DNA of 64,000 bases from an uncultured virus (IMG/VR IMGVR_UViG_2061766007_000288) (IMGVR_UViG_2061766007_000288), one strand, 5' to 3'. Counted from the stretch's first letter, positions 19,378-59,619 are shown. Made by a program: numbers and translations. The notes: generated by a model from the letters alone, not told the origin.

Positions 19378-19940
19378 GGGGATGACAACAGATAGCATCA
19401 TTTCTACCAACAATTACCAACTTTAACCAGTTTCTATATACATTTTCTTGCAATAATACCTTGATTTTTAATGAAAATAATTGTAGATTGTTATAAACTT
19501 AATGATAGATGCAAGTAGGTGGAAGTTCTTGCATAAGACATTATAACGGACTTTTGAATGCCCGATGGACGCTAACTTCCACAATAAGTGTTCATCGGGC
19601 ATTTGCTATATAGACTATGGAACAGCAGTGCGGAAGGAAGATATGCTTGAAGCCGAGCAAGGCACAGGTGCGGACGATGTACCGTATGTGTGCCGTTTCC
19701 CGCCGNNNNNNNNNNTAACTGGAAACTTGCCGAACAGAACAAGGCTTACGAAGAAGCCAAGGCCAATACACCGGAAGGCGAGAAGGTCAAATGCACCCTC
19801 GGTACACCGAGAGATTGGCACAAGGAATGGTGCATCTTCAAGAAACTGTCCGATAACAAGTGGATGACGGAAGTCTCCAAGTTCTGCGGTCAAGAAGCCC
19901 TAATCGACCTCGGTTCCGCATGGAAGCGTTTCTTCAAGGG
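19378..19940 (+). mobile_element. tnpB: IS607-like non-autonomous TnpB element, left part (gapped)
   Basis: GGGG|ATGACAACAG left end and 10-nt periodic repeats. ORF from 19617: MEQQCGRKICLKPSKAQVRTMYRMCAVSR...NWKLA...KWMTEVSK...QEALIDLGSAWKRFFK (TnpB N-terminus). Confidence 0.75.
19509..19603 (+). ncRNA. kissing-loop leader RNA, copy A
   Basis: Stem ATGCAAG/CTTGCAT with loop TAGGTGGAAGTT; stem AATGCCCGATG/CATCGGGCATT with loop containing AACTTCCAC. Confidence 0.8.
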
Positions 19941-20318
19941 NNNNNNNNNNATCGATAGTTTTTTCCTTTGTGACTGTCTTAGAATTTGCTGTCTTTTTGG
20001 TAGTTGCCATTAAAAACTCCCTCAAATAGAGTAGGTCTGTAAATTAATCACGGATTCCGATGAAATCTCTCCGTTCCATCTGAACTTAAAAACGATAGTT
20101 CCTTGAAGGAGATAGTAAACCAACGCATCAACCTTCTCCGGGAATGTTTTCGGCAGTGTAGCATTAATCGGTTGGTCGTCAATGTAGACAGTGCACGATG
20201 TAGACAAGAGTCGTTCAGCCTCGTCGCGGAACATCTTGATGATATCATCATCGTCCCATTTTGTGCCATGGGCAAGAATGTAGTTGTCACGAATTAAAAA
20301 TACCATGTATTTTTCCTT

Positions 20319-20807
20319 TTAGCCATGGGTGAATTCATGTTCAAGCGTGGTAAGTTCGGACAGCATGGCGCCCATGTTCTTGTTTACCCTATGGAGCACC
20401 CTTGCTAGTGCCTTATTGGATATTACCGTAAGGTGATCCATGTCCTTGATGTCGAACTTCGTGTCTTTCTTGGTCCTGCAGAATAGCATGTCGTCAGAAC
20501 GCATGTCCAGTTCATCGGACACGGTGAGACGGTAATCGCAATCACGATCCAGACGGTACTCGCCGGGAGCGAATTTCCGCAAGTTGTCGATCCTGAATAT
20601 CCTGTAATGACCGCCGGCTTCCTTGTCGTAGGTATGCTCGTCATGGGTACCCCATCCACCAAGCGTCACCCACTTGCCAACGAACTTGGCTTTGAGCGCA
20701 TTCGTGTCCTCGGCATCAACCGAGGCTCTGAGCTTGGCCCGTTTGTTGCGCAGGTCCTGAATCTGATGGTCAATGTCGTCAAGTTTCTGGCGTACCGTCT
20801 TCTTCAT
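20319..20807 (-). CDS. hypothetical protein
   Basis: Early promoter and AAGG RBS; MKKTVRQKLDD... Confidence 0.7.
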   Translation of the reverse strand: MKKTVRQKLDDIDHQIQDLRNKRAKLRASVDAEDTNALKAKFVGKWVTLGGWGTHDEHTYDKEAGGHYRIFRIDNLRKFAPGEYRLDRDCDYRLTVSDELDMRSDDMLFCRTKKDTKFDIKDMDHLTVISNKALARVLHRVNKNMGAMLSELTTLEHEFTHG

Positions 20808-20859
20808 AGCTATACCTTTATTGCAAATGTAGCATTCGGGGACACACATGGCAACCTGG

Positions 20860-21321
20860 CTAACCGGGGAACACCTTGTCGAGAACCTTGAAGAACAGGT
20901 AGTGGGCACCGGGGCCCCATGCCGTATTGAATACGCCTGTACCAATAATCCCCCACTTCGCCGGTTCTTGAGCCGTCAATGAACAGTATGTCATTCCCGC
21001 TATGATGGGGAGGCCCACCCAGGTGAAGTAGAGTACCAGGAGAATGCAGATTAAGATGGCCATGCCAAGTCCTGCCATAAGCGCGGCATAGGATTCCGCC
21101 CATGTCTTGTCCTTGAAGAATACAGGCCTCAGGGGCACCGGGGACCACAGGACAATCGCGGCCAACACTAGGATTGCTGGAAACCAGCCTACATCCGGCA
21201 TGTTTGCCACAAACATGTATGCAAGAAAAATAATTCCCGGCAGGAGCACGGCAATCCCAATCATGAACTGTTTCATCAAGTTCCAGACGGCTCCGATGAA
21301 TTCCTTATAGATTTCAATCAT
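20860..21321 (-). CDS. membrane protein
   Basis: Several hydrophobic helices. Confidence 0.65.
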   Translation of the reverse strand: MIEIYKEFIGAVWNLMKQFMIGIAVLLPGIIFLAYMFVANMPDVGWFPAILVLAAIVLWSPVPLRPVFFKDKTWAESYAALMAGLGMAILICILLVLYFTWVGLPIIAGMTYCSLTAQEPAKWGIIGTGVFNTAWGPGAHYLFFKVLDKVFPG

Positions 21322-21632
21322 TTTCTTCTTCCTCCGTACGCAGGGCCCTACGAGTCGCCTGTCTGCATCTTTTGGACGGGCTCCAGTAGCGCAACCTGTT
21401 GTCGATATGGTTATGACGATGGCCACCTTTCAGGTTCGGCCTGTAGTGCTCATGGAATACTATACGGCTCCTAACGGTACCGTCGCTATCCTTGTATATG
21501 ACCACCTCTTCATACTTGCCATCATTGTTATAGATGAAATTTGTATCTGCGTACCATGAATAGCGTTTCATGTCTACCTCAACTTCCAGACGTATTCCAG
21601 GCAATCCTTGTAAACTTCGAGCATGTTATCTC

Positions 21633-22074: not shown

Positions 22075-23475
22075 CTACCAGTTGTTCTTTTTCAGTTTTT
22101 CCTTAGCCGCTTCGTACTGCTTGATGGTAAGATACCACGGCTTCTTATGGATATGCGACCAGCAATACTGCGTACCGTTTTCATAGTTGCCGAAGTTCTT
22201 GTACGACGGGTGGGTCAATTTTTTAACAAGGCCATAGTGGAGCAGGTCCCTGCTGCCGGTATATTCCATGTCCTTAGACCAGAAGGTCTCGCGAATGAAC
22301 TTGATGAATTCATCCGGGGTCATGTCGCCAATGTAGGTCTCTACAACCTTTGTTGACTTTTCCTTGCGGGAATTTGTGTCACTATGCAGGCAGCACAGGG
22401 TATTCCAGTTAAATCCGATCTGTCGCCTACCGAAATAATCGTATTCATATACGCTATTCTGGCAGAGGGCATATATATCCTCGTCCTTATTCTCGGACTC
22501 GTAATAGAACATGTTCAGCAACTTAGGATCACTGCCGCGGTCATAGAATTGAATGAAGATGTCAGTAATCATCGAAATCGGCAATTCTTTCAGCTTCATC
22601 TTGGAGAACGGAACGACATCCAGGCTTTCCACGCCAATCTCGTAATGGTTGCGACAGTCAATCGACTTGACATATTTTTCCCATTCCTTCCATTCGATAT
22701 ACGGAACCGGTTCACGGACCCTGGCATCCTCGGTCGGCCCATAGTCCTTGGTCGGCTTGAAATCCTGTTTGACATGGCCGCATTTCGCCAAGGTGTCATC
22801 GACGACCATGTCATCAAACTTTGTGCTCTTGCTTTGCATCATGGCATCATAGCGCATCGTGAACGTACGGAACTTGTAATCCCTGCCGATGACAATGTAG
22901 TTTCGCCAGAAACAGTTCGTGGAATCGTCGCAGTAGGACGATGCGGAGCCGCAAACGTGGTGCATGAACGGCTTAATCATGGTCACCAGCTTCTGGGCAT
23001 CGACGAAGTAGTCGCGGAGCTTTTCAACCTGCACGCCGTACGGGATTTTGTCAACATCCTTCGGCATGACGGAATTCTTGCTGACCGGGCTGACCGTAAG
23101 GCCACGGCGGATCTTGTATGTATCGGATTCATCATCCTCATCAGGTTCTTCCCAGTCATAATCATCGCTAATGACATTGGTAAATGCGGATATGTCGTGC
23201 ATGACCGGCCTTACATACGGGTTGTACTCGTAATCCCAGTCATAATATGGACTGAAATAGCGGAAATCGCCGGCAGCAACCAAAGCCACCGAGTCTTCGC
23301 AGATAAAGGAATGGCCTTTCTGCCATGTACTATTGTCACGGTCTTCGGTGTCATAGTATGCACCCAGGACGATGCAGTTGTCGGTCGGCTTTCCATACAG
23401 GTCGAAGATACGGTCGATTTCCGTACATACCTGTTCATAGAATTTCTTGTCGTATTTTTTAGTTGTTTTAGCCAT
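22075..23475 (-). CDS. hypothetical protein, 466 aa
   Basis: Long ORF with phage-like composition. Confidence 0.8.
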   Translation of the reverse strand: MAKTTKKYDKKFYEQVCTEIDRIFDLYGKPTDNCIVLGAYYDTEDRDNSTWQKGHSFICEDSVALVAAGDFRYFSPYYDWDYEYNPYVRPVMHDISAFTNVISDDYDWEEPDEDDESDTYKIRRGLTVSPVSKNSVMPKDVDKIPYGVQVEKLRDYFVDAQKLVTMIKPFMHHVCGSASSYCDDSTNCFWRNYIVIGRDYKFRTFTMRYDAMMQSKSTKFDDMVVDDTLAKCGHVKQDFKPTKDYGPTEDARVREPVPYIEWKEWEKYVKSIDCRNHYEIGVESLDVVPFSKMKLKELPISMITDIFIQFYDRGSDPKLLNMFYYESENKDEDIYALCQNSVYEYDYFGRRQIGFNWNTLCCLHSDTNSRKEKSTKVVETYIGDMTPDEFIKFIRETFWSKDMEYTGSRDLLHYGLVKKLTHPSYKNFGNYENGTQYCWSHIHKKPWYLTIKQYEAAKEKLKKNNW

Positions 23476-38156: not shown

Positions 38157-38321
38157 TGTCAAAACCTCGCCCCGCAGTTTATAGCTTTTCGCTACTTGCC
38201 GGGACGGGAAATATGTGTCCGATGTAGGGGCACAGGACCACGGTGTCCTTGGGGACACTGTTCTTGATGATTTCGAGGGCCTTCCTGATGTCCCCGTTGG
38301 CGCCGGGGACCGGCCTGATGT

Positions 38322-41270: not shown

Positions 41271-42668
41271 TCATACGAGGACATGAAGCTCCTTCGCGGC
41301 TCTGGTGAACGCGGTATACTTCAGCTTGTTGCGAAGCTCGTGCTCTTGGATTCGGTTGATGTTCCTCTCGACGACAAACACGTTTTGTATGGTTGAACCC
41401 TGCGACTTGTGCGCGGTGAGCGCGTAGATGTATCCTACCCACAGGTAGTAGTGGTTGAGCGCGGCGTAGTCCTTCCACGCTTCCTTCGGCGTGTAGATCT
41501 TGTGGCCGTTCTTGTCTTCCTTCTCAAGTCGTTCCTTGGCCTGTATGGCAAGTTCCTCGCGGAGCTTGTAGAAGTCTTCGAGGCCGTCCGGACGGATGAT
41601 GTACGCGGTGGCGTTGGTCTTGCGCTTCTTGCGCTTAACGACGTTAGAAACCTCGACCTTGAAGCACTTTATGTGGTAGCAAGGGTCTTCGACATCCTCG
41701 ATGGAGTTGATTATCAAGTGCTCCTCGATGTTGTATATGACGCTGAACATCAGGTTCCTTCCCACATGCACGTCGTTTCCGTACGTGCGCACCACGCGCA
41801 CTTCCTCGCCCACTTCGTACATTCGGGTACTGTCCGGATAGATTGCCGCACGGACACGCTCGTTGATGGCGTCCACCGCCGCGTTGGTGTACGCGACTGC
41901 CATCGCGTGGCTGGAGTCGTTCTTGAACTCTTCTGACGTGAAGTACGGCATCATCGTTGACATGAACTCGCGCTCGAAGTGGTGGAAGTAGATGCCAGTG
42001 CCGTCTTCGGAGACCTTCGTTTCGTGCGCGAACAAGTCGACCGGGCTCGTCATGTCCTCGCGCATCTTGGTGACTACGCCGAGGATTGGGTTCTGGTCTG
42101 CGGTACGCATTACCTTCGTGAGCTCCACCTTCATCGGAAGCTGGAAAATGACGGACTCCATGTAGCCCTTGTTGGCGTCGTCCACCGGAGGAATCTGACA
42201 GCGGTCTCCGACGTAGATAACTTTGATCGCCGTAAACGTACGCAGCTGCTTCTGGATCTCGTTAAGCAAGTTGTTCGATACCATAGACGCTTCGTCGATG
42301 ATGACGACTTCGTATTCGCAGAGGTGCGACTCGTGTTCCTTCTTGAGTTTCGGCTTGCCGTCGGAGAAGTCTAGTAAGACTAGGCCGAGCAGCGAGTATA
42401 TGGTCTTGTCGTAGTCTCGTCCGGTCGCTTGAGCGATGACTTCCACGGCCTTGTTCGTGGGCGCGGTACACACGCAGCGCGGCATGTCCTCGTTATCGCC
42501 GCTTTCCAGCTCGTCGAGCAGTACGTTGATTAGCGAGGTCTTTCCAGTACCAGCCGCGCCGTACAGAACCATCTGCCTACGGTCTGGTGCCTTCAGGAAC
42601 TTGTGTATGATTTCCAGCGCGTTGAGCTGGTCTTCGTTCAGATCGGATTTCTTTAATCTCTTGGCCAT
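41271..42668 (-). CDS. dda: Dda-like SF1B DNA helicase
   Basis: GAAGTGKT, APTNKA, IIDEASM, GDRCQIPPV, YALTAHKSQGST and YTAFTRA motifs. Confidence 0.9.
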   Translation of the reverse strand: MAKRLKKSDLNEDQLNALEIIHKFLKAPDRRQMVLYGAAGTGKTSLINVLLDELESGDNEDMPRCVCTAPTNKAVEVIAQATGRDYDKTIYSLLGLVLLDFSDGKPKLKKEHESHLCEYEVVIIDEASMVSNNLLNEIQKQLRTFTAIKVIYVGDRCQIPPVDDANKGYMESVIFQLPMKVELTKVMRTADQNPILGVVTKMREDMTSPVDLFAHETKVSEDGTGIYFHHFEREFMSTMMPYFTSEEFKNDSSHAMAVAYTNAAVDAINERVRAAIYPDSTRMYEVGEEVRVVRTYGNDVHVGRNLMFSVIYNIEEHLIINSIEDVEDPCYHIKCFKVEVSNVVKRKKRKTNATAYIIRPDGLEDFYKLREELAIQAKERLEKEDKNGHKIYTPKEAWKDYAALNHYYLWVGYIYALTAHKSQGSTIQNVFVVERNINRIQEHELRNKLKYTAFTRAAKELHVLV

Positions 42669-42732
42669 GGAGTTAAATTTAGAAAGAAAAATTATGAACT
42701 CAAGTTGTACACTATTCGCTCTGACGAGCGCA

Positions 42733-43845
42733 TTAAACCGTCGTTCCAACGGCGCTTATTCCATAGGAAAGAATATTTAACGCTGCATTGACATCTCGAT
42801 CATGATGTTCATTGCAGTTAGGACATATCCATTCTCGAACTGATAAGTTTTTCACGGCTTGATTTTTATAACCACACCGATGGCAAAGTTGACTGGATGG
42901 GAACCACCGAGAGACCTTTATTACATCGCGACCATACCAGCGAGCTTTATAATTTAGCATGTTAAGAAAGTGTCTCCATGCAGTATCTTGCGTAGATTTA
43001 GCCGTCGTTCTATTTTGCGCAATCGTTTTGATGTCTAAATCTTCGACTACAATCGTTTGGTTTTCGCGAATGAGTCGTGTAGATAATTTATGAAGGAAAT
43101 CTTCTCGCTGATGCATGATTTTTTCGTGTAACCGAGCGATTCGCTGTCTTAGTTTTTCATGCCGATGTGATTCTTTATGTGTCCGTGAAAACGCTCGTTG
43201 CAAGTTGGCGAGTTTTTCTTCGGAACGGGCAAAATACTTAGGATTGCTTATAATTTCGCCGTCGCTGGTTGCACAGAATTGATGTAACCCTAGATCAATT
43301 CCTATGGAAAACGTAGTTTTCGGTAATTGCTGGCAATCCTCCTCTTCAACCATAATCGACGCATAAAAGTGTCCACTTCGACCCATTGTTATCGTGGCGT
43401 GTTTAATCGTTTTGTTGTCCCATGATATATTCTGGTAATTTTTGAAGTTGATAAATCCGATTTTAGGCATTCGTAACTGATTATGCTCGATGCGTATATT
43501 GTTTTTCGTTGTATAGCTAGTGTATGAATGCGTATCGCTGTGCCGACTTTTAAATTTTGGCTTGCCATGCCCATCTTTCATGTGTCGGAACCACTGATTG
43601 TATGCGGTTTTCAAGTTAATGGTTTCTGCGGTAAGTGCATTAGAATCGACTTCTTTTAAGAATGGATATTCGGTATAATAATCAGTCGGTTTAGGAGAAC
43701 CACGTCTGCCAGTTGTGTGGTAGTTATGTATCATTGTTGCAAGCATACAATTATATACCAATCGGCAGCAGCCAAATGTTTTTATGAGCAGAGTTTGCTG
43801 TTCTGCCGTTGGATATAGTCGTATTTTATATGTCCGCTGCAACAT
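42733..43845 (-). CDS. tnpB: TnpB (IS605 OrfB-type), intact RuvC triad
   Basis: TYKIRLYPT, GIDLG, VVEDL, PSSQLCHRCG...CPNCNEHHDRDVNAALNI. Confidence 0.93.
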   Translation of the reverse strand: MLQRTYKIRLYPTAEQQTLLIKTFGCCRLVYNCMLATMIHNYHTTGRRGSPKPTDYYTEYPFLKEVDSNALTAETINLKTAYNQWFRHMKDGHGKPKFKSRHSDTHSYTSYTTKNNIRIEHNQLRMPKIGFINFKNYQNISWDNKTIKHATITMGRSGHFYASIMVEEEDCQQLPKTTFSIGIDLGLHQFCATSDGEIISNPKYFARSEEKLANLQRAFSRTHKESHRHEKLRQRIARLHEKIMHQREDFLHKLSTRLIRENQTIVVEDLDIKTIAQNRTTAKSTQDTAWRHFLNMLNYKARWYGRDVIKVSRWFPSSQLCHRCGYKNQAVKNLSVREWICPNCNEHHDRDVNAALNILSYGISAVGTTV

Positions 43846-43849: not shown

Positions 43850-43938
43850 AAATCCTATCGGAACTGGTACTTCCGATAGGATTTAATGCGCAACTGCGCA
43901 TTAGTAAAAGTCATCGAATTCGGCAAGTACCAGTTGCC
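43850..43938 (-). ncRNA. kissing-loop leader RNA, copy D (variant with extra middle hairpin)
   Basis: GGCAA-CTGGTAC-TTGCC; TAATGCGCA/TGCGCATTA; AAATCCTATCGGAA-GTACCAG-TTCCGATAGGATTT. Confidence 0.72.
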
Positions 43939-44847: not shown

Positions 44848-46655
44848 CCTAAAATCTACCTAAACTTATCCAAAACTACTTAAATCTACAAGCATTTTAC
44901 CAACCTTTAGGTTGAAATTCGGCATAAAATTTGTACATTGTTATAAACTTGATGTATAGATGTTCGATGAATTAGTGGATTTCTTCATTGAACTATGACA
45001 AGAGACCATTTCCGATGGCTCGTTTGATGCTGAAATCCACTATAAGTATCGAACGAGCCATTTCTGTATTGTATGAGCAAGCACTGTTGGACATTGAAGG
45101 ATAGGTATGAATCGCAGTTCTCCGCTGCGTTTTATCCTATGCTTTTGTCCGACACGAAGCGAGCAGAAATCATCCACCGTGCTGAGGAAATCCGAGCCGT
45201 AAGGAACGACATATCCGAAGTGTTCTTCTCGGACATGCTAGGTTTCCAAGACATGACGAAGTTTGAAGCGTTCAACTTCTTCAATCCGACCTTCACCACT
45301 CGGCTATCCAGCCACTACTTGAAGAAGGCCATCGAGGATGTCTGGAAGGCATACCAATTACGGTTCGACGCAATTCGCAAGAAGATTGAGTTTGCCAAGG
45401 TTGACGAATTAGTACCATCCTTTTACAAGATAAATGTCAAGGGACATAAGAAAGGCGACCTTAAATCCGTTGAAGTTCGCACAAAGAAGACAGAACTTAC
45501 CAAAGTGCTGACTTGGCTTGCACGATACGGCAAGGATGAAACTGTCTACTGGCTGGCATCTGCTATTCCTACCGCGCAAGAATCCAAGCAGAAGTTCTAC
45601 CGAACGATACTGGATAAGATACGCAAGTTCGGATTTGATCGCCTAATGCGGCTGGCTATGTCTAAGAGAACCACTGTATTCACCGAATACGAGAAGCGGG
45701 GGAAGATTACCTTTGAATCGCTTACATTCAGTGGTCGGAGCCGTATCAAGCGTCCTATTGTTGATGCTAGAAGAAATGAAACCGGAAAGTTCGACTATTT
45801 CATCGAGATTTCCTGGGATTGGTATGACCAAGGATATCGTGGCGACAGCAAGAAGACGCTATGTATGCCGTTCAAGTACAATAAGGCATACCACCGTTCA
45901 TTGAACCGCTACTGCAACGGGACTGACACTTCCTATACTATGGTTGTTAGAGGCAAGGACATACATATAGTTATCGCCCGTGACGGCTACCGATACAAGA
46001 ATAATGATGAAATTACCGAAGAAAATACCGTCGGTATAGATGTCAATTCCAAGCACAATATGTTTGCATTGAGTACCGGGGAGTTCATCCCGAACGACGA
46101 TGCCTTAATTGACGACCTTGAAACCGAATTGCTCAAGATAGACCAGAAACAGAAGAACTACAATGCTCGGTTTGCCAAGGACGAAGAGCACGATGCGTTC
46201 AAGATTTCCAAGACGGACAAGAAACGGATTGAAGCAATAACCTTGAAATTGAACGAGTCCAACAAGCGAGCCATTGTACTGCTCTGTCAGACATTCGCTG
46301 CCAATGGAATCAAGCACATAGCAATGGAGAACCTTGATGGTTTCCAAGGAAGCAAACTTCATTCCGAGGACAGTAAAGGATTTAATCTAGGTAGGTTGCA
46401 TCTGCGGACTGGGCTTTCCTCCCTGAAGGATGAGTTCATCCATATTGCACCCAAGTACGGCTTGCTAGTATCGCTTGTGCAAGCCGAATACACATCTAAG
46501 ATGTGTGGTCACTGCGGCTGTATAGATGACCGCAACCGTCAGACACAAGAAGAATTTTGCTGTGTGGAATGCGGACATTCCGAGAATGCCGATATACACA
46601 GCTCGAAGAACATTAAATTTCGCCTTACCTCGACCGTGTTAAGAGGGAACCTGCT
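44832..46655 (+). mobile_element. tnpB: IS607-like element with long TnpB (CDS from 45073, truncated at gap)
   Basis: GGG|TTATCAACAG left end; four 10-nt repeats (AAAATCTACC/TAAACTTATC/CAAAACTACT/TAAATCTACA); GIDVN, AMENL, Zn finger, NADIH. Confidence 0.82.
44962..45061 (+). ncRNA. kissing-loop leader RNA, copy B
   Basis: Loop TAGTGGATTTC (44973-44983) is complementary to loop GAAATCCACTA (45032-45042). Confidence 0.82.
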
Positions 46656-46703
46656 NNNNNNNNNNACAAAGAAGAAACCGATAAAAACAAACGGGCCCAT
46701 ACA

Positions 46704-48428: not shown

Positions 48429-48476
48429 CATAGTTGCCACTTCCACTCACGTTCCTGCATTCCGACCCGGATAAGG

Positions 48477-50466
48477 GGTTGCCAACAGTGAGCATAAAAT
48501 CGATCTAAATTTCCCAAAATCTACCGAAATCTACACACATTTTTCTACAACAATATCTTGACAACCGGTAAACATTTTTATATATTGTTATAAACTTATG
48601 GTATACTGTTCAATGAATTAGTGAGATTCTTCATTGAACTGGCAAGGTCATTTTAGATGGCTCGTTTGGAATTGAATCTCACAATAAGTTCCTTACGAGC
48701 CATTATTTTTGTATGAGCAAGCACTGTTGGACATTAGGCAATAGGTTCGAGTCGCAGTTTTCCGCTGCGTTCTATCCTATCATGTTGTCCGACACGAAGC
48801 GGACTGAAATCATACATAGAGCTGAAGAAATACGTGCCGTTCGGAACGAGATATCGGAGGTATTTTTCTCCAACATGCTCGGCTTCCAGGACATGACGAA
48901 GTTCGAGGCGTTCAACTTCTTCAATCCCACCTTCACGGACAGGATGTCCAGCCACTACTTGAAGAAGGCCATCGAGGATGTATGGAAAGCCTACCAGCTT
49001 AGATATGATGCCATCCGCAAGAAGATTGAATTTGAACTTGTCGGGAAACTTATACCATCGTTCTACAAGATAAATGCCAAGGGGCACAAGAAAGGCGACC
49101 TGAAGTCGATAGAACGGCATGCAAAGAAGACGGAACTGACCAAGGTGCTTACCTGGCTTGCCAGGTATGGAAATGACAACAGCGTATATTGGCTTGAATC
49201 GAAGATCCCTACCGTAGATGAATCCAAGCAGAAGTTCTACCGTACCATCCTCCGTTGTATTAGTAAGTTCGGGTTCGATCGCCTAATGCGGCTAGCTTTA
49301 TCCCGTAGAGAAACAGTATTTGGCGAGTATTCTTCCCGTGGCAAGATTACATTCGAGTCGCTCGCTTTCAGCGGCAGAAGCCGAATTAAAAGACCTATCG
49401 TAGATGCCAGAAGGAATGAAACTGGCAAGTTCGACTACTATATCGAGATTTCTTGGGACTGGTTCGATGATGGCTATCGTGGCGATAGCAAGAATACGAT
49501 GTGCATTCCGTTCAAGTACAACCGCGCATATCACCGTGCATTGCAAAGGTACTGCAACGGAACAGACACCTCATATACTATAGTTATCCGTGGCAACGAC
49601 ATCCACTTCGTATTGGCCAGGGACGGATACCGTTACAAGCACGATGAGGAAATTACCGAGGAAAATACTGTCGGAATAGACGTGAACTCCAAGCACAACA
49701 TGTTCGCATTGAGTACCGGTGAGTTCATTCCTCACGATGAAGCGTTGATTGCCGACCTCGAAGATGCACTGGTGAAAGTCGATGCCAAGCAGAAGGCGTA
49801 TAATGCTAGGTTCAAGAAGGACGAAGTTCATGATGCCTTCAAGATTTCGAAGAAGGACAAGAACCGCATCGAGGCAATCACTACGAAGCTGAACGAGTCC
49901 AACAAGCGTACCATTGCCAACTTATGCAAGCAGCTTGCAGAACTCGGCATCAGGCATATCGCCATGGAGAACCTCGATGGTTTCCGGGGACGCAAGCTTC
50001 ATTCGGAAGACAGTAAAGGATTTAATCTTGGACGGTTGCATCTAAGGATTGGACTTTCCTCACTGAAGGATGAGTTCATCCACATTGCACCCATGTACGG
50101 CTTGCTGGTTTCGCTTGTACAGGCCGAGTATACATCCAAGATGTGCGGTGAATGCGGTTGTATCGACGACCGTAACCGCCAGACCCAGGAAGAATTTTGC
50201 TGTGTGGAATGCGGGCATTCAGAGAATGCCGACATCCATTCAGCCAAGAACATTAAATTTCGCCTTACCTCGACCGTGTTAAGAGGGAACCTGCTAGTTC
50301 TAGCGGGGGATAGCGAATACAGGCACTTCATTCCGAAAGGAAACTTGCCTAGGTGGCGAGTAAAGAAGTTCCTGGAAAAATGCCGTTGCGATGGCCTGTT
50401 CAAACGGGCCATAGGAAATCACGAAAGACTTACCGTGAGTAAGTTTGAGTAGATTTCGGTCAACGG
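48477..50466 (+). mobile_element. tnpB: complete IS607-like non-autonomous element encoding 579-aa TnpB (48713-50452)
   Basis: Left end GGGG|TTGCCAACAG with 10-nt repeats; right end carries inverted copies (GTAAGTTTGAGTAGATTTCGG) and ends TCAACGG; RuvC D/E/D intact; no tnpA. Confidence 0.85.
48608..48703 (+). ncRNA. kissing-loop leader RNA, copy C
   Basis: Loop GTGAGATTC (48621-48629) is complementary to GAATCTCAC (48674-48682); compensatory relative to copy B. Confidence 0.82.
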
Positions 50467-50621
50467 TGCAGATGGTGCTTGGATATCCGTTTACCTATCT
50501 TGGACACCTTTATGACGTCGTCTATGATTTTCTTCTTGGCCTGCTCGGATTCTATGTCAGACATGTCTGTCATGGCTTTTCCTTGTAACGGTCGAGGTCG
50601 CCTCGCAGATANNNNNNNNNN

Positions 50622-51928: not shown

Positions 51929-52495
51929 CTACCATATAAAGCCCATCTTGCCAAAGAAGTTATTCCGCACATTGTCCAGCGTCTTGTCTAGCTGGTTATG
52001 GGTGAGAATCTGGTCAACATGGGTAATACGGAGGTCATTCCCGGTCTGCGTATATATGGACAGTTGCTTCTTGCCGCTAGGTACACCGTACTTGTCACTT
52101 TCGGCCACCCGGAGCATCTTGCCCTTTACCGAGACGAACCCGTTGCCGATGCCGGTAACCTTCTCCACCTTGGTAATGGTGAAATTTTCCTTGATTATCG
52201 GCCCTTCGCCAATCATCATGGACTCGCGGTCATATTCCAGGACCCACTTGTCACGGTAGAAATCGTCGAGCTCCTTGATGCGGGCAGACTCGTCATCCTT
52301 CGATACGGAACGGTAGTGCTCCTCGGCTTCGCGCAGTGCCTCTCGGGCACGGTCGAGGGCCTTGCGGGCCTCCACCTTCTCCGGGTTCACCTTGGCGAGA
52401 CGGTTCGACTTAACGGGAACCACCTCCCCGTCGGGGGAGGTGAAGGTAACTGTGTCCTTTCTGAACAGATCGTTCAACGGACCGAGCTTGCTCAT
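51929..52495 (-). CDS. hypothetical protein
   Basis: Overlaps the pncB stop; GGAGG RBS. Confidence 0.65.
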   Translation of the reverse strand: MSKLGPLNDLFRKDTVTFTSPDGEVVPVKSNRLAKVNPEKVEARKALDRAREALREAEEHYRSVSKDDESARIKELDDFYRDKWVLEYDRESMMIGEGPIIKENFTITKVEKVTGIGNGFVSVKGKMLRVAESDKYGVPSGKKQLSIYTQTGNDLRITHVDQILTHNQLDKTLDNVRNNFFGKMGFIW

Positions 52496-53772
52496 TGGCA
52501 CACCTCCTGCACCTCGTCGATAGACCTATAATTAAATGCCCGTTTCACTTCCTCAATGCGGCTTTCATCCGGACACATTGTCTTGCCAAGCGAATCAGAC
52601 AACTTGACCGCCCATTTCCATGGATCATTTTCGCATTCCTTAACACGGGTCACCTTCATGACCATGGACAATGGCTTACGTTTAATCTCACTCTTGAATG
52701 CCAAAATAGATGCGCATAGGAAAGTACCAATGCCAAACGCAATTTTCAACCTCAGATTGAAATGTTCAGCAATAGAAATTGCCGTATCAGCATCGAGACT
52801 ATCACTCCAGCATCCAATCTTAGTTGCCGGATCAATACCAAGTTTTCGATAGTGGGCAATTAGCATCTCGCCCCAAGTATATGGATTACCGGAATCATGA
52901 CGGCATCCGTCAAACAACTTAGCGAAATACTTATCAAAATCGCGCAGGAAAGCATGGAAACCATAGTTATCACTCAATGCAATACCAAGATCTCCACGAT
53001 ATTCCTTAGTCCAGTCATCCAATACTACAGCCTGTGACTTATGGAGTGGAATATCATCAATACCTTGATACACTGCATACAGTTCGTGCGCGAATGTCCC
53101 GATAGCCTTACATCCGAGCTTAATGGCAAGGTACACATTGGATGTACCAACAAACACACCAGGCAGTTCCTTCAATAGTGTGGATACCATGTACTCGTTC
53201 CACTCATCAGAGATGCCGCGGCGGATACCGAAGTCACTGACGGTAAACTTGATCCCTCGATTGATAGCCGACTTCCATTTGGCAATTACTGCATCAAGGT
53301 TCTTCTTGGAAGTCTCCCAGTCAATCTCAAGATCATCAAAATAAAGGTGTTGCACAATTTGAAGCACGTAGATTTCAAACCAGAATACCTGAAGTTGAGG
53401 TCCCTCGGCCCATATTTTAATACCACATTCTTCATTCGGATCCAAGATGCAATGAATATATTTGCGCTTAAGCTGGAAATCTTCCAGATACTCAATCCAA
53501 TCATTCGCAAGCCAAGGCATCACTGCACGAATTCCGTCCAGTTCCCATTGAGTATATGTCAACGTGCAAAGGTGGTCTAATTCTGCATTGATATAATCAG
53601 TCAGATGTGCAACGTTCACGTTCTTGCTGCGAATCTTGAAATCCCATCGGGCGCGAGCATTTGGGTGCTTATGTAAATAAAGCTGTCCCATTGAGTATTT
53701 GTAGCAATCAATGGCAGTTAAATAATTGATAATGTGATGTTCCGGATGTAGTCTCTTGTAAGCAGTTTTCAT
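52492..53772 (-). CDS. pncB: nicotinate phosphoribosyltransferase
   Basis: DCYKYSM, DFGIRR, GTSNVYLA, IGTFAHE, ALSDNYG, RHDSGNP, SDSLD, FGIGT and KLSDSLGK motifs. Confidence 0.92.
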   Translation of the reverse strand: MKTAYKRLHPEHHIINYLTAIDCYKYSMGQLYLHKHPNARARWDFKIRSKNVNVAHLTDYINAELDHLCTLTYTQWELDGIRAVMPWLANDWIEYLEDFQLKRKYIHCILDPNEECGIKIWAEGPQLQVFWFEIYVLQIVQHLYFDDLEIDWETSKKNLDAVIAKWKSAINRGIKFTVSDFGIRRGISDEWNEYMVSTLLKELPGVFVGTSNVYLAIKLGCKAIGTFAHELYAVYQGIDDIPLHKSQAVVLDDWTKEYRGDLGIALSDNYGFHAFLRDFDKYFAKLFDGCRHDSGNPYTWGEMLIAHYRKLGIDPATKIGCWSDSLDADTAISIAEHFNLRLKIAFGIGTFLCASILAFKSEIKRKPLSMVMKVTRVKECENDPWKWAVKLSDSLGKTMCPDESRIEEVKRAFNYRSIDEVQEVCQ

Positions 53773-54659
53773 GTTATTTTTAGCTCCGTCACTTTTCTGT
53801 AAAGCTCGCTTTGTTTGAGTTCCTTTACTTGTTCGTTTGATATGTTGTGTTTGCATAGGTAATCCTCCGTAAAAGTTTCAAATAAATCCCATAATTTATA
53901 TCCATCATAAGTATGGTCATATGAAGTGTGAAACCGAATTGCTCCAACCATTCCACGATAATCTCGCAACTCCTTTGTAATAGGGTCCCTGAATAACCCA
54001 TACTTGGAAATTTTCCAATGTAATTCCCATGCATCATTTTGGTATTCAGGTAATTTGATTCCCTTAATAAAAACATTACGCATTGATGCCCTTATTAAAG
54101 ATCTAGTACCAACCCCATATCGTTTAGAAATATTCTGGACAGACTCAACAGTAACTATTGGCTCTCTGCCATCCTCAAATATAATTTGATGTGCTTGCTT
54201 TAATCTATGATGTTCAGATAAGTGCTTCTTATGTTCAGCACTCTTGGGCTTACCAGCATTCGACATGGATATGCGACGCTTAGTATCGATTGAGTGTCTA
54301 TATCCTCGTTGTTTTCTAGTAATGGCACTTTTCCGGCAACTCTCCGGTGTAGCACCACCTTCACCCCCTGGACTTATATTATACCCATTTGGACAAAGCG
54401 TGTTAAAAAACTTAATGTAATAAATTTCACGTTCCGAAACAACATGATGTTTTTCATCGTCGTCTATATACTCAACAATTTCCTTCTTGAATGCATCCTT
54501 ACCGTATTTCTTGATTGCATCCTGAATTGCAATACCACCGCCAAGATATCTACGCAAACTCTCTGGCTGTTTGGGCACCTTATGCTGCCCAATGTAGCAC
54601 TTACCGTTTAGCATATTAGTGAGTTTGTAAATGTAGTATTGCATTCTGTTAGGTTCCAT
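53769..54659 (-). CDS. free-standing GIY-YIG homing endonuclease with NUMOD3-like repeats
   Basis: YIYKLTNMLNGKCYIGQH, NGYNISPGG, HSIDTKRRIS...KSAEHKKHLS; AT-rich. Confidence 0.88.
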   Translation of the reverse strand: MEPNRMQYYIYKLTNMLNGKCYIGQHKVPKQPESLRRYLGGGIAIQDAIKKYGKDAFKKEIVEYIDDDEKHHVVSEREIYYIKFFNTLCPNGYNISPGGEGGATPESCRKSAITRKQRGYRHSIDTKRRISMSNAGKPKSAEHKKHLSEHHRLKQAHQIIFEDGREPIVTVESVQNISKRYGVGTRSLIRASMRNVFIKGIKLPEYQNDAWELHWKISKYGLFRDPITKELRDYRGMVGAIRFHTSYDHTYDGYKLWDLFETFTEDYLCKHNISNEQVKELKQSELYRKVTELKIT

Positions 54660-57282: not shown

Positions 57283-58236
57283 TCATGCAGCCTCCTTCTG
57301 AATTGCAATCGGATCAATCACACCATATTCAGTCGGGTTTTCGATGGAATGTTCCAGACCCATATTTTCGCGCACATGGGATAGAATTACATCATCGTCG
57401 ATACGAGTGGCATATACGGAATACCCCATTCTACGCAATAAAAACGGAAGGTTGCAAATGATATCATGCATCTGGTTATCAACTTTATCAAAATCCTTTA
57501 CAAACGTGCTTAAAAGTGTCGGATTATAACAACCCGGTAAATAGTTATTGCATAGTGAGACATAGTTGGGGAGAGTTCCCAATCGCCAACTAATTCCGGG
57601 ACGACCTTTGAACAGATTTACTTGGAAATAATAATGCTCCGTCTCGACAACGAAATAGCACTGGGGATCATATTGTTCTGGGTCGGCAAACTTCCAATGT
57701 ATTCCCCGTTCACCATTGATACCCATCTTGGTAATGTAACCGTCATGTCTCCTGGACATGTATGGCCCACACTGCTCTCCGCCTTTCCATGTGGTGTAGG
57801 TGATGAGCTTATTGGTCTTCCTCACACCAACACCATCCTTGTGGCCCTTACATGCTTTCATCTTACCGTATTCGGAATTGATTTCATCCATCCGGGAAAT
57901 CACTTCCTCCTCGGTAACCTTGGAAAAGTCGGTAGTCTGGTATGTCAGGCAAAACGCGTTGCGCATCTGCACCATTATGCAGGGCTTGGCGCATTTTGCC
58001 AGGTAGAAGTGTGCAAGTACATGCCTGCCCTTCGAGAGAGACACAAGGTTCTCCCTGGCCATGTCAGGGGACCTGGAAGTGCGGCATTCCTTTATGCCCA
58101 GTACATCGGAGAAGTACGCCACCGGGACTATGTGGTGGACTTCCAGGTTGTCCCCGTAGTCGCACCCGGAAACTAGTTCCAGGTACTTTCGCCCATATTC
58201 GCACTGGCTGTCGATTGCTTCTTCGATGTAATTCAT
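57283..58236 (-). CDS. HNH endonuclease-domain protein
   Basis: EVHHIVP...ENLVSLSKGRHVLAHFYL. Confidence 0.7.
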   Translation of the reverse strand: MNYIEEAIDSQCEYGRKYLELVSGCDYGDNLEVHHIVPVAYFSDVLGIKECRTSRSPDMARENLVSLSKGRHVLAHFYLAKCAKPCIMVQMRNAFCLTYQTTDFSKVTEEEVISRMDEINSEYGKMKACKGHKDGVGVRKTNKLITYTTWKGGEQCGPYMSRRHDGYITKMGINGERGIHWKFADPEQYDPQCYFVVETEHYYFQVNLFKGRPGISWRLGTLPNYVSLCNNYLPGCYNPTLLSTFVKDFDKVDNQMHDIICNLPFLLRRMGYSVYATRIDDDVILSHVRENMGLEHSIENPTEYGVIDPIAIQKEAA

Positions 58237-58299
58237 TCTTCACCCATTTGTTTTCCAAAATGTAGCAAATGTCACACCGAGTGGCAACCACCCGGAAAA

Positions 58300-59463
58300 T
58301 CATGAGCGATGAACCCTCCGTACATTGGCAAAAATATTCGGAAAATGTTCTATAACTCGATTTATCATATCTTTGCCCATGCCTGTACATGCAATCAGGG
58401 TTTTTTGCCATCCACATTTTGTTAAATCAACCCCCGAAGCTAATATCATGTCCCGTCGTCTGCAAAATTCAGATTCAAGAACCGCATGATTAGCACCATA
58501 TATTCCTAACGTTTCACGCTTGTTTACTGTTCCGGGTGAAGGGCGAATGAATACCTTACCGGCCAACTCAGGAAACCGTTTCACCGTAAGATTTACCTGC
58601 TTCCTGGTAAGACCGGTTTTCTTCGATACTTCACGCGCCCATCCAAACTTGTGTAAATCTATCCCAGAAGACAGAATCCGCTCTTTACGCTCGTTCCATA
58701 CGTGGTCAAAATACTCGCGATATATTTCTTTCAATCGCGCATTAACTTTCTTTTCCTCCATTTGACGTTCAGCTGCCGTTTTATATAATGGAAATGACAC
58801 ATCACCGCACTCAGTTAAAAACGCCTTTATTCGATTAACCGTATCCTCCTTATATTTTATGGCATATCCCCATTTCACCCGGAGCAATTTCCATCCATTC
58901 TGCTGAAGCAATGCCTCCTTCTTAGCATCGCTAGCCTTTCGTTCAGGCATTAAGTGGCAGTTCCCATCCATTTCAATGCAGAGCCGGCGGGTTACCCATG
59001 CGAAATCAAGAAAATACCCATAAAACGGGAGTTCAGTTACATAATCAACGCCTTCGTGTTGATTAAAGTTGTTGCGGAGCACTTCAATCAGCCACCTTTC
59101 TGGATAAGAATGACCAACTTTGTCCCTTGTGGAAAATTTCTTTGCCAACCCTAACCGATGTCGTTCTTTTTGGTGTTCCGAATGAATTCGGCGGAATTCA
59201 GGTGTCCGGCAGCAATCCATATTGAATACACGTCTATCAGGATTACGGGGACATCTCAGCTCATGATTTGCCAACCCAGGTGATGTAGTGTATAGTTGTT
59301 TGCCGCAAAATTTACATATGTAGTTATTTTTAACCACTATGCATGTATGAGATCTGCATCCCCTATGTGCTGTCTTTTTATGGTTTTCCAGTTCGCGCCT
59401 TACTGAAAAGATTTCTTTACATACTGGACATTTCCACCCATCTTTTTTGTGCTTAAATGTCAT
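58300..59463 (-). CDS. Zn-finger plus DUF559/Vsr-like endonuclease (probable free-standing homing endonuclease)
   Basis: CPVC..H...H and CKFC..H...C; YFLDFAW...IEMDGNCH...DAKKEALLQQNGWKLLRVKW; two C-terminal ILxSGxDLxKxGW repeats. Confidence 0.8.
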   Translation of the reverse strand: MTFKHKKDGWKCPVCKEIFSVRRELENHKKTAHRGCRSHTCIVVKNNYICKFCGKQLYTTSPGLANHELRCPRNPDRRVFNMDCCRTPEFRRIHSEHQKERHRLGLAKKFSTRDKVGHSYPERWLIEVLRNNFNQHEGVDYVTELPFYGYFLDFAWVTRRLCIEMDGNCHLMPERKASDAKKEALLQQNGWKLLRVKWGYAIKYKEDTVNRIKAFLTECGDVSFPLYKTAAERQMEEKKVNARLKEIYREYFDHVWNERKERILSSGIDLHKFGWAREVSKKTGLTRKQVNLTVKRFPELAGKVFIRPSPGTVNKRETLGIYGANHAVLESEFCRRRDMILASGVDLTKCGWQKTLIACTGMGKDMINRVIEHFPNIFANVRRVHRS

Positions 59464-59480
59464 ACCATACCCAATTAAGA

Positions 59481-59568
59481 TACCCCCGGTATAGCAATTT
59501 GTGGCACTCTGCATATACCAGGGGTACAAAAATGGTTTATGTTCGAACATGAGTGCCACCTAATGCTC
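59481..59568 (-). ncRNA. kissing-loop leader RNA, copy E
   Basis: GAGCAT-TAGGTGGCACTC-ATGTTC; TACCCCTGGTATA...GAGTGCCAC...TATACCGGGGGTA. Confidence 0.8.
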
Positions 59569-59619
59569 AGATAAAGTTTATAGGTTTCACCACAATTCGA
59601 AATTGGTATGATATATTCG

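What the first reader, a model, noticed from the sequence alone, without database searches (positions are those of the whole stretch)
19492..59582. Recurrent covarying kissing-loop RNA leader in front of five selfish nuclease genes
Seen in sequence: five loci share the layout TATAAACT, hairpin 1, linker, hairpin 2, then ATG 4-17 nt later. The two loops are exact reverse complements but differ between loci: A GTGGAAGTT/AACTTCCAC (19519/19574), B TAGTGGATTTC/GAAATCCACTA (44973/45032), C GTGAGATTC/GAATCTCAC (48621/48674), D CTGGTAC/GTACCAG (43927/43864, minus strand), E GTGGCACTC/GAGTGCCAC (59551/59501, minus strand). In A, B, C and E loop 1 is always 12 nt (T-W-R-GTG-N6) and loop 2 has N6'-CAC followed by an AT-rich stretch, while stem sequences are unrelated apart from B/C. 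This is strong covariation. Hairpin 1 starts at or near the predicted TSS and no Shine-Dalgarno precedes the ATG. The downstream genes are three dissimilar TnpB types and a DUF559 endonuclease. Established: TnpB reRNA derives from the 3'/right end, so this 5' RNA is not the reRNA. T4 homing endonucleases use late promoters plus simple hairpins for timing, but not this architecture. Inference: a cis-regulatory RNA class (attenuator, translation-initiation element or protein-gated switch) that controls toxic nuclease expression in the phage cycle and is shared across unrelated mobile elements. I do not recognise it as a described motif.
Basis: partly seen in the sequence, partly recalled or inferred. 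Interest (0 to 1): 0.92.

Follow-up and report, generated by a model that had tools for sequence, protein, structure and literature searches.

The report
Kissing-loop leader before phage nuclease genes
A roughly 100-base RNA leader, in which the loop of a first hairpin base-pairs with the loop of a second, terminator-like hairpin, sits between a phage promoter and the start codon of TnpB-type nuclease genes in cattle-rumen phages; it matches no described RNA family and probably limits how much nuclease is made.

Summary
All five loci have the layout promoter motif, hairpin 1, hairpin 2, ATG, with exactly complementary loops at the stated coordinates.

- **Recurrence:** a covariance model finds 29 such leaders in the window and related IMG/VR rumen phage contigs. 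They carry 18 different loop-pair sequences; 28 of 29 pair perfectly over 9 bases. A shorter three-hairpin form (locus D) has 11 more relatives with three loop pairs, all perfect.
- **RNA, not DNA:** the stems hold 105 G·U against 7 A·C cells, so the structure is read on the sense strand.
- **Terminator-like hairpin 2:** it ends in a G+C-rich base followed by a U-rich tract (mean 6.1 U in 10), with the ATG 4-16 bases further in the window.
- **Location:** the leader lies inside IS607- or IS605-type elements that lack a transposase gene. Copies that keep the transposase have the same promoter but no leader.
- **Downstream genes:** 16 of 18 leaders precede TnpB genes.
- **Known families:** Rfam gives no match, and my literature searches found no description.

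My best reading is a cis-acting attenuator or expression throttle. That function is inferred, not shown.

The parts
19378..19391 (+). Locus A: IS607-type left end (GGGGATGACAACAG, followed by TACCAA repeats); homology with relatives begins here
19492..19499 (+). Locus A: TATAAACT promoter-like motif
19509..19534 (+). Locus A hairpin 1 (7 pairs, 12-base loop; loop word GTGGAAGTT at 19519-19527)
19557..19603 (+). Locus A hairpin 2 (16 pairs; loop word AACTTCCAC at 19574-19582, then the A-rich tail AATAAG); followed by TGCTATAT
19617..19940 (+). Locus A: 5' part of a TnpB gene, cut by N runs at 19706-19715 and 19941-19950; the full homologue (463 aa) is in contig G003
44831..44843 (+). Locus B: IS607-type left end (GGGTTATCAACAG, then AAATCTAC repeats)
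44942..44949 (+). Locus B: TATAAACT
44962..44993 (+). Locus B hairpin 1 (10 pairs, 12-base loop; loop word TAGTGGATTTC at 44973-44983)
45014..45062 (+). Locus B hairpin 2 (17 pairs including G.U; loop word GAAATCCACTA at 45032-45042)
45073..46655 (+). Locus B TnpB-like gene (Cas12f1-like TNB domain); the open frame runs to 46863 across an N run at 46656-46665
48475..48488 (+). Locus C: IS607-type left end (GGGGTTGCCAACAG)
48589..48596 (+). Locus C: TATAAACT (a TTGACA-17-TATATT match lies at 48558-48586)
48608..48639 (+). Locus C hairpin 1 (loop word GTGAGATTC at 48621-48629)
48656..48704 (+). Locus C hairpin 2 (loop word GAATCTCAC at 48674-48682); followed by ATTTTTGT then ATG
48713..50452 (+). 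Locus C TnpB-like gene, 579 aa
43950..43957 (-). Locus D: TATAAACT
43922..43938 (-). Locus D hairpin 1 (GGCAA / CTGGTAC / TTGCC; 7-base loop at 43927-43933)
43885..43903 (-). Locus D middle hairpin (TAATGCGC AGTT GCGCATTA); it covaries in relatives
43850..43884 (-). Locus D hairpin 2 (14 pairs, 7-base loop GTACCAG at 43864-43870). It holds AGGA in its 3' arm and is followed by TTTTT-AA-ATG; terminator-like
42733..43845 (-). Locus D TnpB gene, 370 aa (HTH_OrfB_IS605, OrfB_IS605, TNB)
59575..59582 (-). Locus E: TATAAACT, 36 bases downstream of tRNA-Gly (59619-59694)
59544..59569 (-). Locus E hairpin 1 (loop word GTGGCACTC at 59551-59559)
59480..59527 (-). Locus E hairpin 2 (14 pairs, 20-base loop; loop word GAGTGCCAC at 59501-59509)
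58300..59463 (-). Locus E gene: C2H2 zinc finger plus DUF559 endonuclease domain, 387 aa

Best explanation
The element is the 5' untranslated leader of the nuclease mRNA, about 100-125 bases long, and it works as RNA in cis.

Proposed fold. Hairpin 1 forms at the very 5' end. Its loop pairs, over 7-11 Watson-Crick pairs, with the loop of hairpin 2. An A-rich tail in loop 2 crosses back over the loop-loop helix. The result is a compact pseudoknot-like fold.

Proposed action. Hairpin 2 has the form of an intrinsic terminator: a G+C-rich base followed by a U-rich tract. It ends 4-16 bases before a start codon that has no free Shine-Dalgarno sequence. In the three-hairpin form an AGGA is buried in its 3' arm. 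I propose that the clamped hairpin 2 stops most transcripts, and hinders ribosome access on those that read through. The promoter carried by the transposase-less IS607/IS605-type element then yields only a little TnpB (or DUF559) nuclease.

Shown here: the structure, its covariation, its strand, its position inside the element, the U-rich tract and the gene association.

Inferred: the transcription start, termination, the translational block, and what the loop-loop contact adds. It is also open whether the block is constitutive or is lifted by a phage or host factor.
For: Structure and covariation:
- On a MAFFT alignment made without any structure (21 leaders), the loop-loop helix is paired in 97.4% of cells, and 8 of 9 pairs change on both sides. 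Sliding the partner columns gives 35-44% for the whole structure.
- On the model-based alignment of 29 leaders, the loop-loop helix is paired in 97.7% of cells. The model does not encode this helix. The whole structure is 95.5% paired against 70.4% in shuffles (0 of 500 reach it).
- There are 18 distinct loop words among the 29 (my tally of the table). 28 of 29 are perfect over 9 pairs.
- L181 carries one uncompensated U.U, between the CGAG allele (L120) and the compensated CGTG allele (L174).
- In the three-hairpin form, 11 of 11 IMG/VR hits are perfectly complementary at positions the search pattern left free, with 3 alleles. A third form sits at G005:81.7 kb.

RNA on the sense strand: 105 G.U against 7 A.C cells in the stems of 28 leaders.

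Terminator likeness:
- A mean of 6.1 U in the 10 bases after the last G-C pair, against a T fraction of 0.26.
- U5-U7 directly after hairpin 2 in the 7-base-loop forms.

Position:
- TATAAACT or another promoter-like box lies 6-12 bases upstream of hairpin 1 at the five window loci. It also precedes the endolysin gene.
- The ATG follows hairpin 2 by 4-16 bases at the window loci.
- In G005:208 kb the leader is followed by a free AAGGAG and an ATG 25 bases on. There, any effect must act on the transcript rather than on the ribosome site.

Role in the element:
- Autonomous relatives have the same left end and promoter, then a small ORF and a serine-recombinase gene, and no leader. Their tnpB start overlaps the stop codon of the ORF just upstream of it.
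- The leader is kept nearly unchanged next to a DUF559 homologue that is only 74% identical in protein.
Against: - No transcript data: no RNA run was listed, so the start site and 3' ends are unknown.
- In the common form, loop 2 has 13-20 bases, which is long for an intrinsic terminator. The U tract is often only AUUU followed by mixed bases. The consensus terminator scan did not flag any hairpin 2, although its loop limit is 8.
- No alternative antiterminator pairing was found. Only 1 of 29 leaders has a competing rod-like fold.
- A plain hairpin would be enough to terminate or occlude, so this reading does not explain why the loop-loop contact is kept.
- 14 of 26 TnpB genes in the same phages do without the leader, behind the same kind of promoter.
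- The RNA polymerase that reads TATAAACT is unknown and may ignore such hairpins.
Confidence: 0.5

Rival explanations
1. Stability or processing element. The compact 5' fold protects the long tnpB-plus-guide-RNA precursor from 5'-end-dependent decay. Alternatively, the stacked helices form a site for a double-strand-specific or AU-specific RNase, whose cut sets the mRNA's 5' end.
For: - Hairpin 1 starts 6-12 bases after the promoter motif at the five window loci.
- Hairpin 2 has 14-20 pairs and could stack on the 7-11-pair loop-loop helix.
- A G.U pair at the base of hairpin 2 is conserved in 27 of 29 leaders.
- The repeated purine-rich-then-UUU motif before and after hairpin 2 is conserved.
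Against: - A single 5' hairpin would be enough for protection.
- No RNase site can be tested here and no transcript data exist.
- It does not explain the U-rich tract, or why transposase-bearing copies lack the leader.
Confidence: 0.15
2. The terminated leader is itself the product. A stable small RNA of about 100 bases acts in trans, with the variable loop pair serving as an element-specific address. For example, free leaders could kiss nascent leaders of the same element, a copy-number sensor like plasmid antisense control.
For: - A promoter directly followed by a terminator-like hairpin makes a short RNA by default.
- The loop words fall into discrete alleles (18 plus 3), and copies within one genome all differ: window A-E, and the copies of G005.
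- A U-rich stretch before a terminal hairpin is the usual shape of small regulatory RNAs (recalled).
Against: - The two loops are complementary within one molecule, so the intramolecular contact should win.
- No third copy of any loop word lies in or near the elements beyond chance.
- With 4-6 free positions, copies would differ by chance anyway.
- No RNA data.
Confidence: 0.12
3. Positive translation element. The fold replaces the translational coupling that autonomous copies get from the upstream gene, placing the Shine-Dalgarno-less AUG in an open, AU-rich stretch just after a fixed structure so that ribosomes can start there.
For: - The leader is present when the transposase gene is absent, and absent when tnpB overlaps an upstream ORF.
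- There is a short U/A-rich unpaired stretch between hairpin 2 and the ATG.
Against: - TnpB genes with a plain leader of about 25 bases and no Shine-Dalgarno sequence exist in the same phages.
- In the three-hairpin form the AGGA is buried in hairpin 2, only 7-8 bases before the ATG.
- One leader precedes a normal AAGGAG site.
Confidence: 0.08
4. A DNA-level signal: hairpins in single-stranded DNA used in transposition, or a short inverted repeat for site-specific inversion.
For: - IS200/IS605 elements use single-strand hairpins at their ends (recalled).
- The loop words are an exact inverted repeat with no G.U pairs.
Against: - The real end signals lie upstream of the promoter: IS607-type repeats in A-C, and an IS605-type hairpin in the D-type relatives G3_40k and G5_117k and in G5_7.8k; none was identified upstream of window locus D itself.
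- The same leader serves both IS607-type and IS605-type elements and a non-IS gene (E).
- The stems hold 105 G.U against 7 A.C cells.
- The orientation is always that of the gene, and none of the 29 + 11 copies is inverted.
Confidence: 0.04

Closest known systems
Promoter-proximal terminator checkpoints and leader attenuators (for example lambda PR'-tR' with its short 6S transcript; recalled)
   Same: A promoter, a short structured leader of about 100-200 bases, and a hairpin with a U tract before the genes it controls.
   Different: No antiterminator protein, qut-like site or alternative pairing was found. The terminator loop is held by an upstream hairpin. It sits on single selfish genes, while other TATAAACT genes such as the endolysin gene have no such leader.
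Kissing-loop antisense control of plasmids (ColE1 RNA I/RNA II with Rop; R1 CopA/CopT; pT181-type attenuation; recalled)
   Same: Fully complementary hairpin loops of 7 or more bases. Loop changes create new specificities. In pT181-type systems loop contact decides whether a leader terminator forms.
   Different: Here both loops lie on one strand of one transcript, about 45-55 bases apart, so the contact is within the molecule. No counter-transcript promoter was sought or seen.
IS200 and IS10 protective 5' structures (terminator hairpin and ribosome-site hairpin in IS200; fold-back inhibition in IS10; recalled)
   Same: Hairpins at the left end of an insertion sequence that keep expression of its gene low. 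A ribosome site is buried in a stem (D form only).
   Different: Both hairpins lie downstream of the element's own promoter. The gene is tnpB, not the transposase. Loop-loop pairing is not part of those systems.
Guide RNAs of the same elements: TnpB reRNA/omega RNA, HEARO (IscB omega RNA), IS605-orfB-I
   Same: Structured RNAs tied to the same gene family. HEARO also lies directly 5' of its nuclease gene and is present in this window at 252-479.
   Different: No match to any Rfam model. The leader is at the 5' end, while a conserved candidate guide-RNA region follows the 3' end of the B/C genes. The loop words match nothing else nearby.
Cis kissing loops in riboswitches (cobalamin L5-L13, lysine L2-L3, purine L2-L3, guanidine-II; recalled)
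   Same: Two hairpins of one leader touch through their loops, and in cobalamin switches this contact gates the expression platform.
   Different: Those contacts are short (2-6 pairs), largely conserved in sequence, and depend on a ligand pocket. Here there are 7-11 freely varying Watson-Crick pairs (mean duplex energy -12.8 kcal/mol) and few conserved unpaired bases.
HK022 put RNA and T4 PeSL cassettes (recalled)
   Same: put: two promoter-proximal stem-loops acting in cis on transcription. PeSL: a promoter plus stem-loop that travels as a cassette between phage genes.
   Different: put hairpins do not kiss and they suppress termination. PeSL are early promoters with a single stem-loop. Neither is linked to TnpB.

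Membership tests
Any Rfam 15 family (including HEARO RF02033 and IS605-orfB-I RF03065) | Score at or near the family's gathering threshold in cmscan | tested here: not met
   At gathering thresholds and at E up to 5 on the whole window, the only hits are HEARO at 252-479 and a chance 22-base hit at 23217. Three leader loci searched at E up to 10 gave no hit on a leader. RF03065 is part of Rfam 15 (passages of PMC11701678).
Intrinsic (Rho-independent) terminator | G+C-rich stem directly followed by a U-rich tract | tested here: met
   Mean 6.1 U in the 10 bases after the last G-C pair in 29 leaders, range 3-8. U5-U7 in 11 of 11 D-form relatives and in G005:81.7 kb.
Intrinsic (Rho-independent) terminator | Short loop (about 3-8 bases) | tested here: inconclusive
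   Met in the D form (7 bases). Not met in the common form (13-20 bases). The consensus scan, with a loop limit of 8, flagged none.
Intrinsic (Rho-independent) terminator | Transcripts end at the U tract | not testable with these tools
   No RNA run was listed for this sequence.
Classical attenuator / riboswitch expression platform | Mutually exclusive antiterminator pairing | tested here: not met
   The two-hairpin fold is the minimum-energy fold, or within 4.6 kcal/mol of it, in all 29. Only 1 of 29 (window B) has a competing rod-like fold.
Leader-peptide attenuator / upstream ORF coupling | Conserved upstream ORF in a fixed frame | tested here: not met
   Upstream ATGs differ in frame, length and stop position among the 29 leaders.
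Antisense kissing-loop control (ColE1, R1, pT181 type) | Complementary loops carried by two RNAs made from opposite strands | tested here: not met
   Both loops lie on the gene's strand within one leader. Stem G.U/A.C asymmetry of 105 to 7 shows only the sense strand folds well.
TnpB reRNA / omega RNA | Overlaps the 3' end of tnpB and the right end, with a guide from the flank | tested here: not met
   The leader is 5' of the ATG. A separate conserved 3' region follows the B-family genes.
IS110-type bridge RNA | Loops complementary to target and donor DNA; DEDD recombinase gene downstream | tested here: not met
   The loop words recur only in each other, apart from chance-level hits elsewhere. 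The downstream genes are TnpB or DUF559.
IS607-family non-autonomous element (the context of A, B, C) | Left end with GG-flanked terminus and subterminal repeats, shared with copies that carry a serine-recombinase tnpA | tested here: met
   Homology among copies starts at GGG..CAACAG, 131-133 bases upstream of hairpin 1. L119 and L122 have the same end and promoter plus a serine-recombinase gene.

The most novel reading that the evidence does not exclude
The variable loop pair may be an address, not just a clamp. Each TnpB element would make an abundant terminated leader whose loops recognise only nascent leaders of the same allele. The element would then sense its own copy number, or the presence of a co-infecting copy, and set nuclease output accordingly. 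This would be a self-contained RNA control of plasmid-antisense type, encoded on one strand. Equally unexcluded: the clamped three-helix fold is a new mechanical RNA device, resistant to exonuclease or modifying the polymerase, carried by transposons.
Probability: 0.12. Interest if true: 0.88.

Novelty: new variant of a known kind. Interest (0 to 1): 0.72.

Why it matters
TnpB nucleases are the ancestors of Cas12 and are widely used as compact genome editors. How the elements control their own nuclease is poorly known, and work so far has centred on the 3' guide RNA.

This finding offers:
- a well-supported structured RNA at the 5' end, with a pseudoknot-type contact whose covariation is close to ideal;
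- a natural series of 21 orthogonal loop pairs;
- a clean natural contrast, since copies with the transposase lack the leader and copies without it carry it.

It gives a directly testable case of how a selfish gene inside a phage genome is throttled. It also yields a set of interchangeable kissing-loop modules that may be useful for RNA design.

Tried and rejected
- **Rfam:** searched at gathering thresholds and at E-value thresholds; no match on any leader.
- **GenBank phages:** no DNA match to either region tried.
- **Whole genome and earlier findings:** neither is held or open for this window.
- **14-base promoter word in IMG/VR:** 115 loci, of which only 3 were real leaders (L011, L024, L050); the rest were chance.
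- **First loose architecture scans:** swamped by chance hits. One gave 348 rows; another gave 113-141 hits in shuffles. I replaced them with strict criteria.
- **Conserved upstream ORF or leader peptide:** rejected, because frames and stops differ.
- **Rod-like alternative fold as a switch:** rejected, 1 of 29.
- **Third site matching the loop words (guide or target idea):** rejected.
- **D's middle hairpin as the IS605 end hairpin:** it shares TTAATGCGC with the region after the D stop codon. In relatives, however, the IS605-type end hairpin lies upstream of the promoter. Left open.
- **Bacterial genomes (one per species):** the B-type hairpin-2 pattern gave 2 hits, both chance matches inside unrelated sequence. 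Only that one exact pattern was scanned.
- **DUF559 relatives:** none in IMG/VR; one in metagenome contigs.
- **Sequencing runs:** no RNA holder listed. Read laying was not used, because contigs cannot show RNA ends.
- **Literature:** six full-text searches listed no paper describing this leader.
- **Shine-Dalgarno in loop 1 (AGGUGG in A and E):** rejected, because it is not kept in other alleles.

Full report
**What is there.** Each has TATAAACT, then 6-12 bases, then hairpin 1, a linker, hairpin 2 and an ATG 4-16 bases later. The loop words and their reverse complements sit at the stated coordinates. All five leaders fold much better than shuffles, with z from -3.7 to -7.3. TATAAACT occurs 10 times in the window against 1.35 expected. 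The other five copies are not followed by the hairpins, and four of them sit closely upstream of an ATG. One of these ATGs starts an endolysin gene, so the motif is plausibly the phage's late promoter. That is inference.

The window also holds a Dda-like helicase, a tRNA-Gly and an IscB omega RNA. It contains 16 runs of N. Two of them cut gene A and one cuts the 3' part of B. DNA runs that hold the sequence are labelled bovine gut metagenome, and no RNA run was listed.

**Is it more than chance?** I ran a strict scan over the window plus three related phage contigs, 725 kb on both strands. It required an exact 9-base loop-loop complement, stem 1 of at least 5 pairs and stem 2 of at least 12. 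It finds 13 loci, 4 of them in the window. Each of 20 shuffles gives 0-1. D has 7-base loops and was found at a lower word length.

**Relatives.** GenBank phages hold nothing similar. IMG/VR does, in several ways:
- Relatives of protein B gave 13 full-length loci, 11 of them with the leader.
- A promoter-word scan gave three more leaders.
- Hairpin-2 patterns gave 15 and 5 leaders, the latter being 5 of 6 hits.
- A pattern for the D form gave 11.
- Three whole contigs of 215-224 kb were fetched and scanned.

A covariance model built from 21 leaders finds 29 leaders at E below 1e-9 and nothing else convincing in 766 kb. The B-type pattern is absent from one genome per bacterial species, apart from 2 chance hits. 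The family therefore looks confined to a group of large rumen phages.

**Covariation.** On the structure-blind MAFFT alignment the loop-loop helix is paired in 97.4% of cells, and 8 of 9 pairs change on both sides. On the 29-leader alignment the figure is 97.7%; the model does not encode that helix. The whole structure is paired in 95.5% of cells, against 70.4% in shuffles and 35-42% when partner columns are slid. Most of the unpaired cells come from row E, which is three columns out of register in hairpin 1 and pairs perfectly in its own register.
- There are 18 distinct loop words. 28 of 29 leaders pair perfectly over 9 bases, with isolated duplex energies from -8.5 to -15.7 kcal/mol.
- L181 has one uncompensated U.U. 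It differs by one base from the allele of L120, and L174 carries the compensated form. This is the expected intermediate of compensatory change.
- The same loop allele occurs on distant gene copies (L116 and L128), and near-identical elements carry different alleles (L123 and L125). Alleles are therefore also exchanged by recombination.
- The D form has three alleles, all perfect in 11 of 11 hits at positions the pattern left free. Its middle hairpin covaries too.
- A third form with 8- and 7-base loops precedes a TnpB gene at G005:81.7 kb.

**RNA, and on which strand.** The stems hold 105 G.U against 7 A.C cells, so only the gene's strand folds well. A G.U pair at the base of hairpin 2 is kept in 27 of 29 leaders. 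Loop 1 has 3 bases before its paired word and none after. Loop 2 has 1-4 bases before it and a conserved A-rich tail (AAUAAG and similar) after it. This asymmetry is what a pseudoknot-type fold needs, with a short strand crossing the deep groove and a longer A-rich strand crossing the shallow one. That reading rests on established pseudoknot geometry and is inference.

**Where it sits.**
- In A, B and C, homology among copies starts at GGG..CAACAG, 131-133 bases upstream of hairpin 1, followed by short direct repeats.
- Two relatives of B (L119, L122) have the same end and the same TATAAACT. They then carry a short leader, a small ORF and a serine-recombinase gene, and there is no kissing-loop leader; in L122 tnpB starts directly at the recombinase gene's stop codon, and in L119 at that of a further small ORF.
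- A relative of the A-type gene at G003:30.8 kb likewise follows a recombinase-like ORF without a leader.
- The D-form relatives in G003 and G005, and the G005:7.8 kb copy, have an IS605-type end hairpin upstream of the promoter; none was identified upstream of the window's own D.
- E has neither kind of end. Its promoter lies 36 bases from a tRNA gene, and a homologue with 74% protein identity has the same tRNA, promoter and an almost unchanged leader.

The leader is thus a module inside transposase-less IS607- and IS605-type elements, and once beside a free-standing endonuclease gene.

**Which genes.** Of 18 leaders in the window and three contigs, 16 precede TnpB-family genes of at least six subfamilies. 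One precedes the zinc-finger/DUF559 gene, and one precedes a 160-aa protein of unknown family that has a normal AAGGAG site. Three of the B-type genes were assigned by homology to B, not scanned on their own. Gene A was assigned by its match to the 463-aa G003 homologue. Conversely, 12 of 26 TNB-domain hits in G003-G005 have a leader. The other 14 include the two with an upstream recombinase gene. They also include many with an end hairpin, TATAAACT, about 25 unstructured bases and an ATG without a Shine-Dalgarno sequence.

**How it may work.** Hairpin 2 has a G+C-rich base followed by U-rich sequence: mean 6.1 U in 10 against a base frequency of 0.26, and U5-U7 in the 7-base-loop forms. In the D form an AGGA, 7-8 bases before the ATG, is buried in the 3' arm. 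I found no conserved upstream ORF, no competing fold (1 of 29) and no third site for the loop words.

The most economical reading is a cis-acting attenuator or throttle. A promoter the element carries is followed by a terminator-like, start-proximal hairpin that is locked in place by hairpin 1, so that little nuclease is made. This fits the fact that in autonomous copies tnpB is reached only through upstream genes. It does not explain why a kissing contact is needed rather than a plain hairpin, and no transcript data exist. The rivals are listed with their odds: a stability or processing element, a trans-acting short RNA with the loops as an address, a positive translation element, and a DNA-level signal.

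**Comparison with what is known.** No Rfam 15 family matches. HEARO and IS605-orfB-I are in that library. Six full-text searches listed no description of such a leader. I saw only listings and abstract openings for those papers, and passages of PMC11701678. No supplements were consulted. The nearest known designs are promoter-proximal terminators, plasmid kissing-loop antisense control, IS200/IS10 5' hairpins and riboswitch kissing loops. All of these are recalled, not tested, and each differs in a defining feature (see the membership table).

**Verdict.** The finding is a real, new RNA family with unusually clean pseudoknot covariation, tied to TnpB elements of rumen phages. Its structure and context are established here. 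Its function is a reasoned guess.

Noticed in passing
window 252-479 (-) and 1-312 (-): A HEARO (IscB omega RNA) match at 131 bits lies directly upstream of an ORF that runs off the window's left end. This phage therefore carries IscB-type as well as TnpB-type elements.
   Followed up: no
window, 16 runs of N (e.g. 8879-9391, 19706-19715, 19941-19950, 46656-46665, 50612-50621): The window is a gapped scaffold. Several gaps fall inside or just after the repeated TnpB elements, which probably broke the assembly there. Gene A and the 3' end of B are therefore incomplete.
   Followed up: partly
window 843-853 (+), about 15718-15728 (-), about 38188-38200 (-); 10375-10462: A second motif (AATGTAGCAAA or GTAGCGAAA) lies about 25-30 bases upstream of three leaderless TATAAACT sites. 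It also occurs as a 13-base inverted pair at 10375-10462. Its reverse complement abuts TATAAACT in D-form relatives. It may be an activator site of the late promoters.
   Followed up: no
L119 1-1500 and L122 1-980: Autonomous IS607-type copies: left end, TATAAACT, an 18-base leader with AAGGA, a small ORF (MKRMKVVRV...), a serine-recombinase gene, and then tnpB starting at the stop codon of the ORF just upstream of it (the recombinase gene in L122; a further small ORF in L119).
   Followed up: partly
G003:194 kb, G003:61 kb, G004:43 kb, G005:82.6 kb and others: Leaderless TnpB genes are preceded, about 100-130 bases upstream, by a conserved palindrome (for example CACGCCC TTTA GGGCGTG) inside GACAAATAGGCGG...CCGCC. 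This is probably the IS605-type left-end hairpin.
   Followed up: no
window 50296-50365, and L116-L128 just after position 3083: A conserved block follows the end of the B-family homology used in the BLAST (…GGGGATAGCGRATAYAGGTACTTC…AGGTGGMAAGTRAGG…). It is a candidate guide-RNA scaffold of these 580-600-aa TnpB-like proteins. Rfam, including RAGATH families, gave no hit in the window.
   Followed up: no
window 59619-59694 (-) and L207: tRNA-Gly(CCC) lies immediately upstream of the E promoter. The same tRNA-promoter-leader-gene order is kept in a metagenome relative.
   Followed up: partly
window 48558-48586 (+): A near-consensus sigma-70-type promoter (TTGACA, 17 bases, TATATT; 11 of 12) lies directly upstream of locus C's TATAAACT. 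The leader may therefore be read from two promoters.
   Followed up: no
window 42728-42737 and 43882-43891: The D middle hairpin shares TTTAATGCGC with the sequence right after the D stop codon, which can itself form a small hairpin. This may be a left/right end pair of an IS605-type element.
   Followed up: partly
G004:122138-122722 and 96420-96528: Long arrays of CCCGGG/GGGAGG-rich short repeats were picked up as false positives by the hairpin scanner.
   Followed up: no
window 15135-15668 (-), 41271-42749 (-), 52492-53856 (-): Endolysin, Dda-like helicase and a nicotinamide phosphoribosyltransferase-like gene. These are consistent with a large lytic phage that carries NAD-salvage genes.
   Followed up: no
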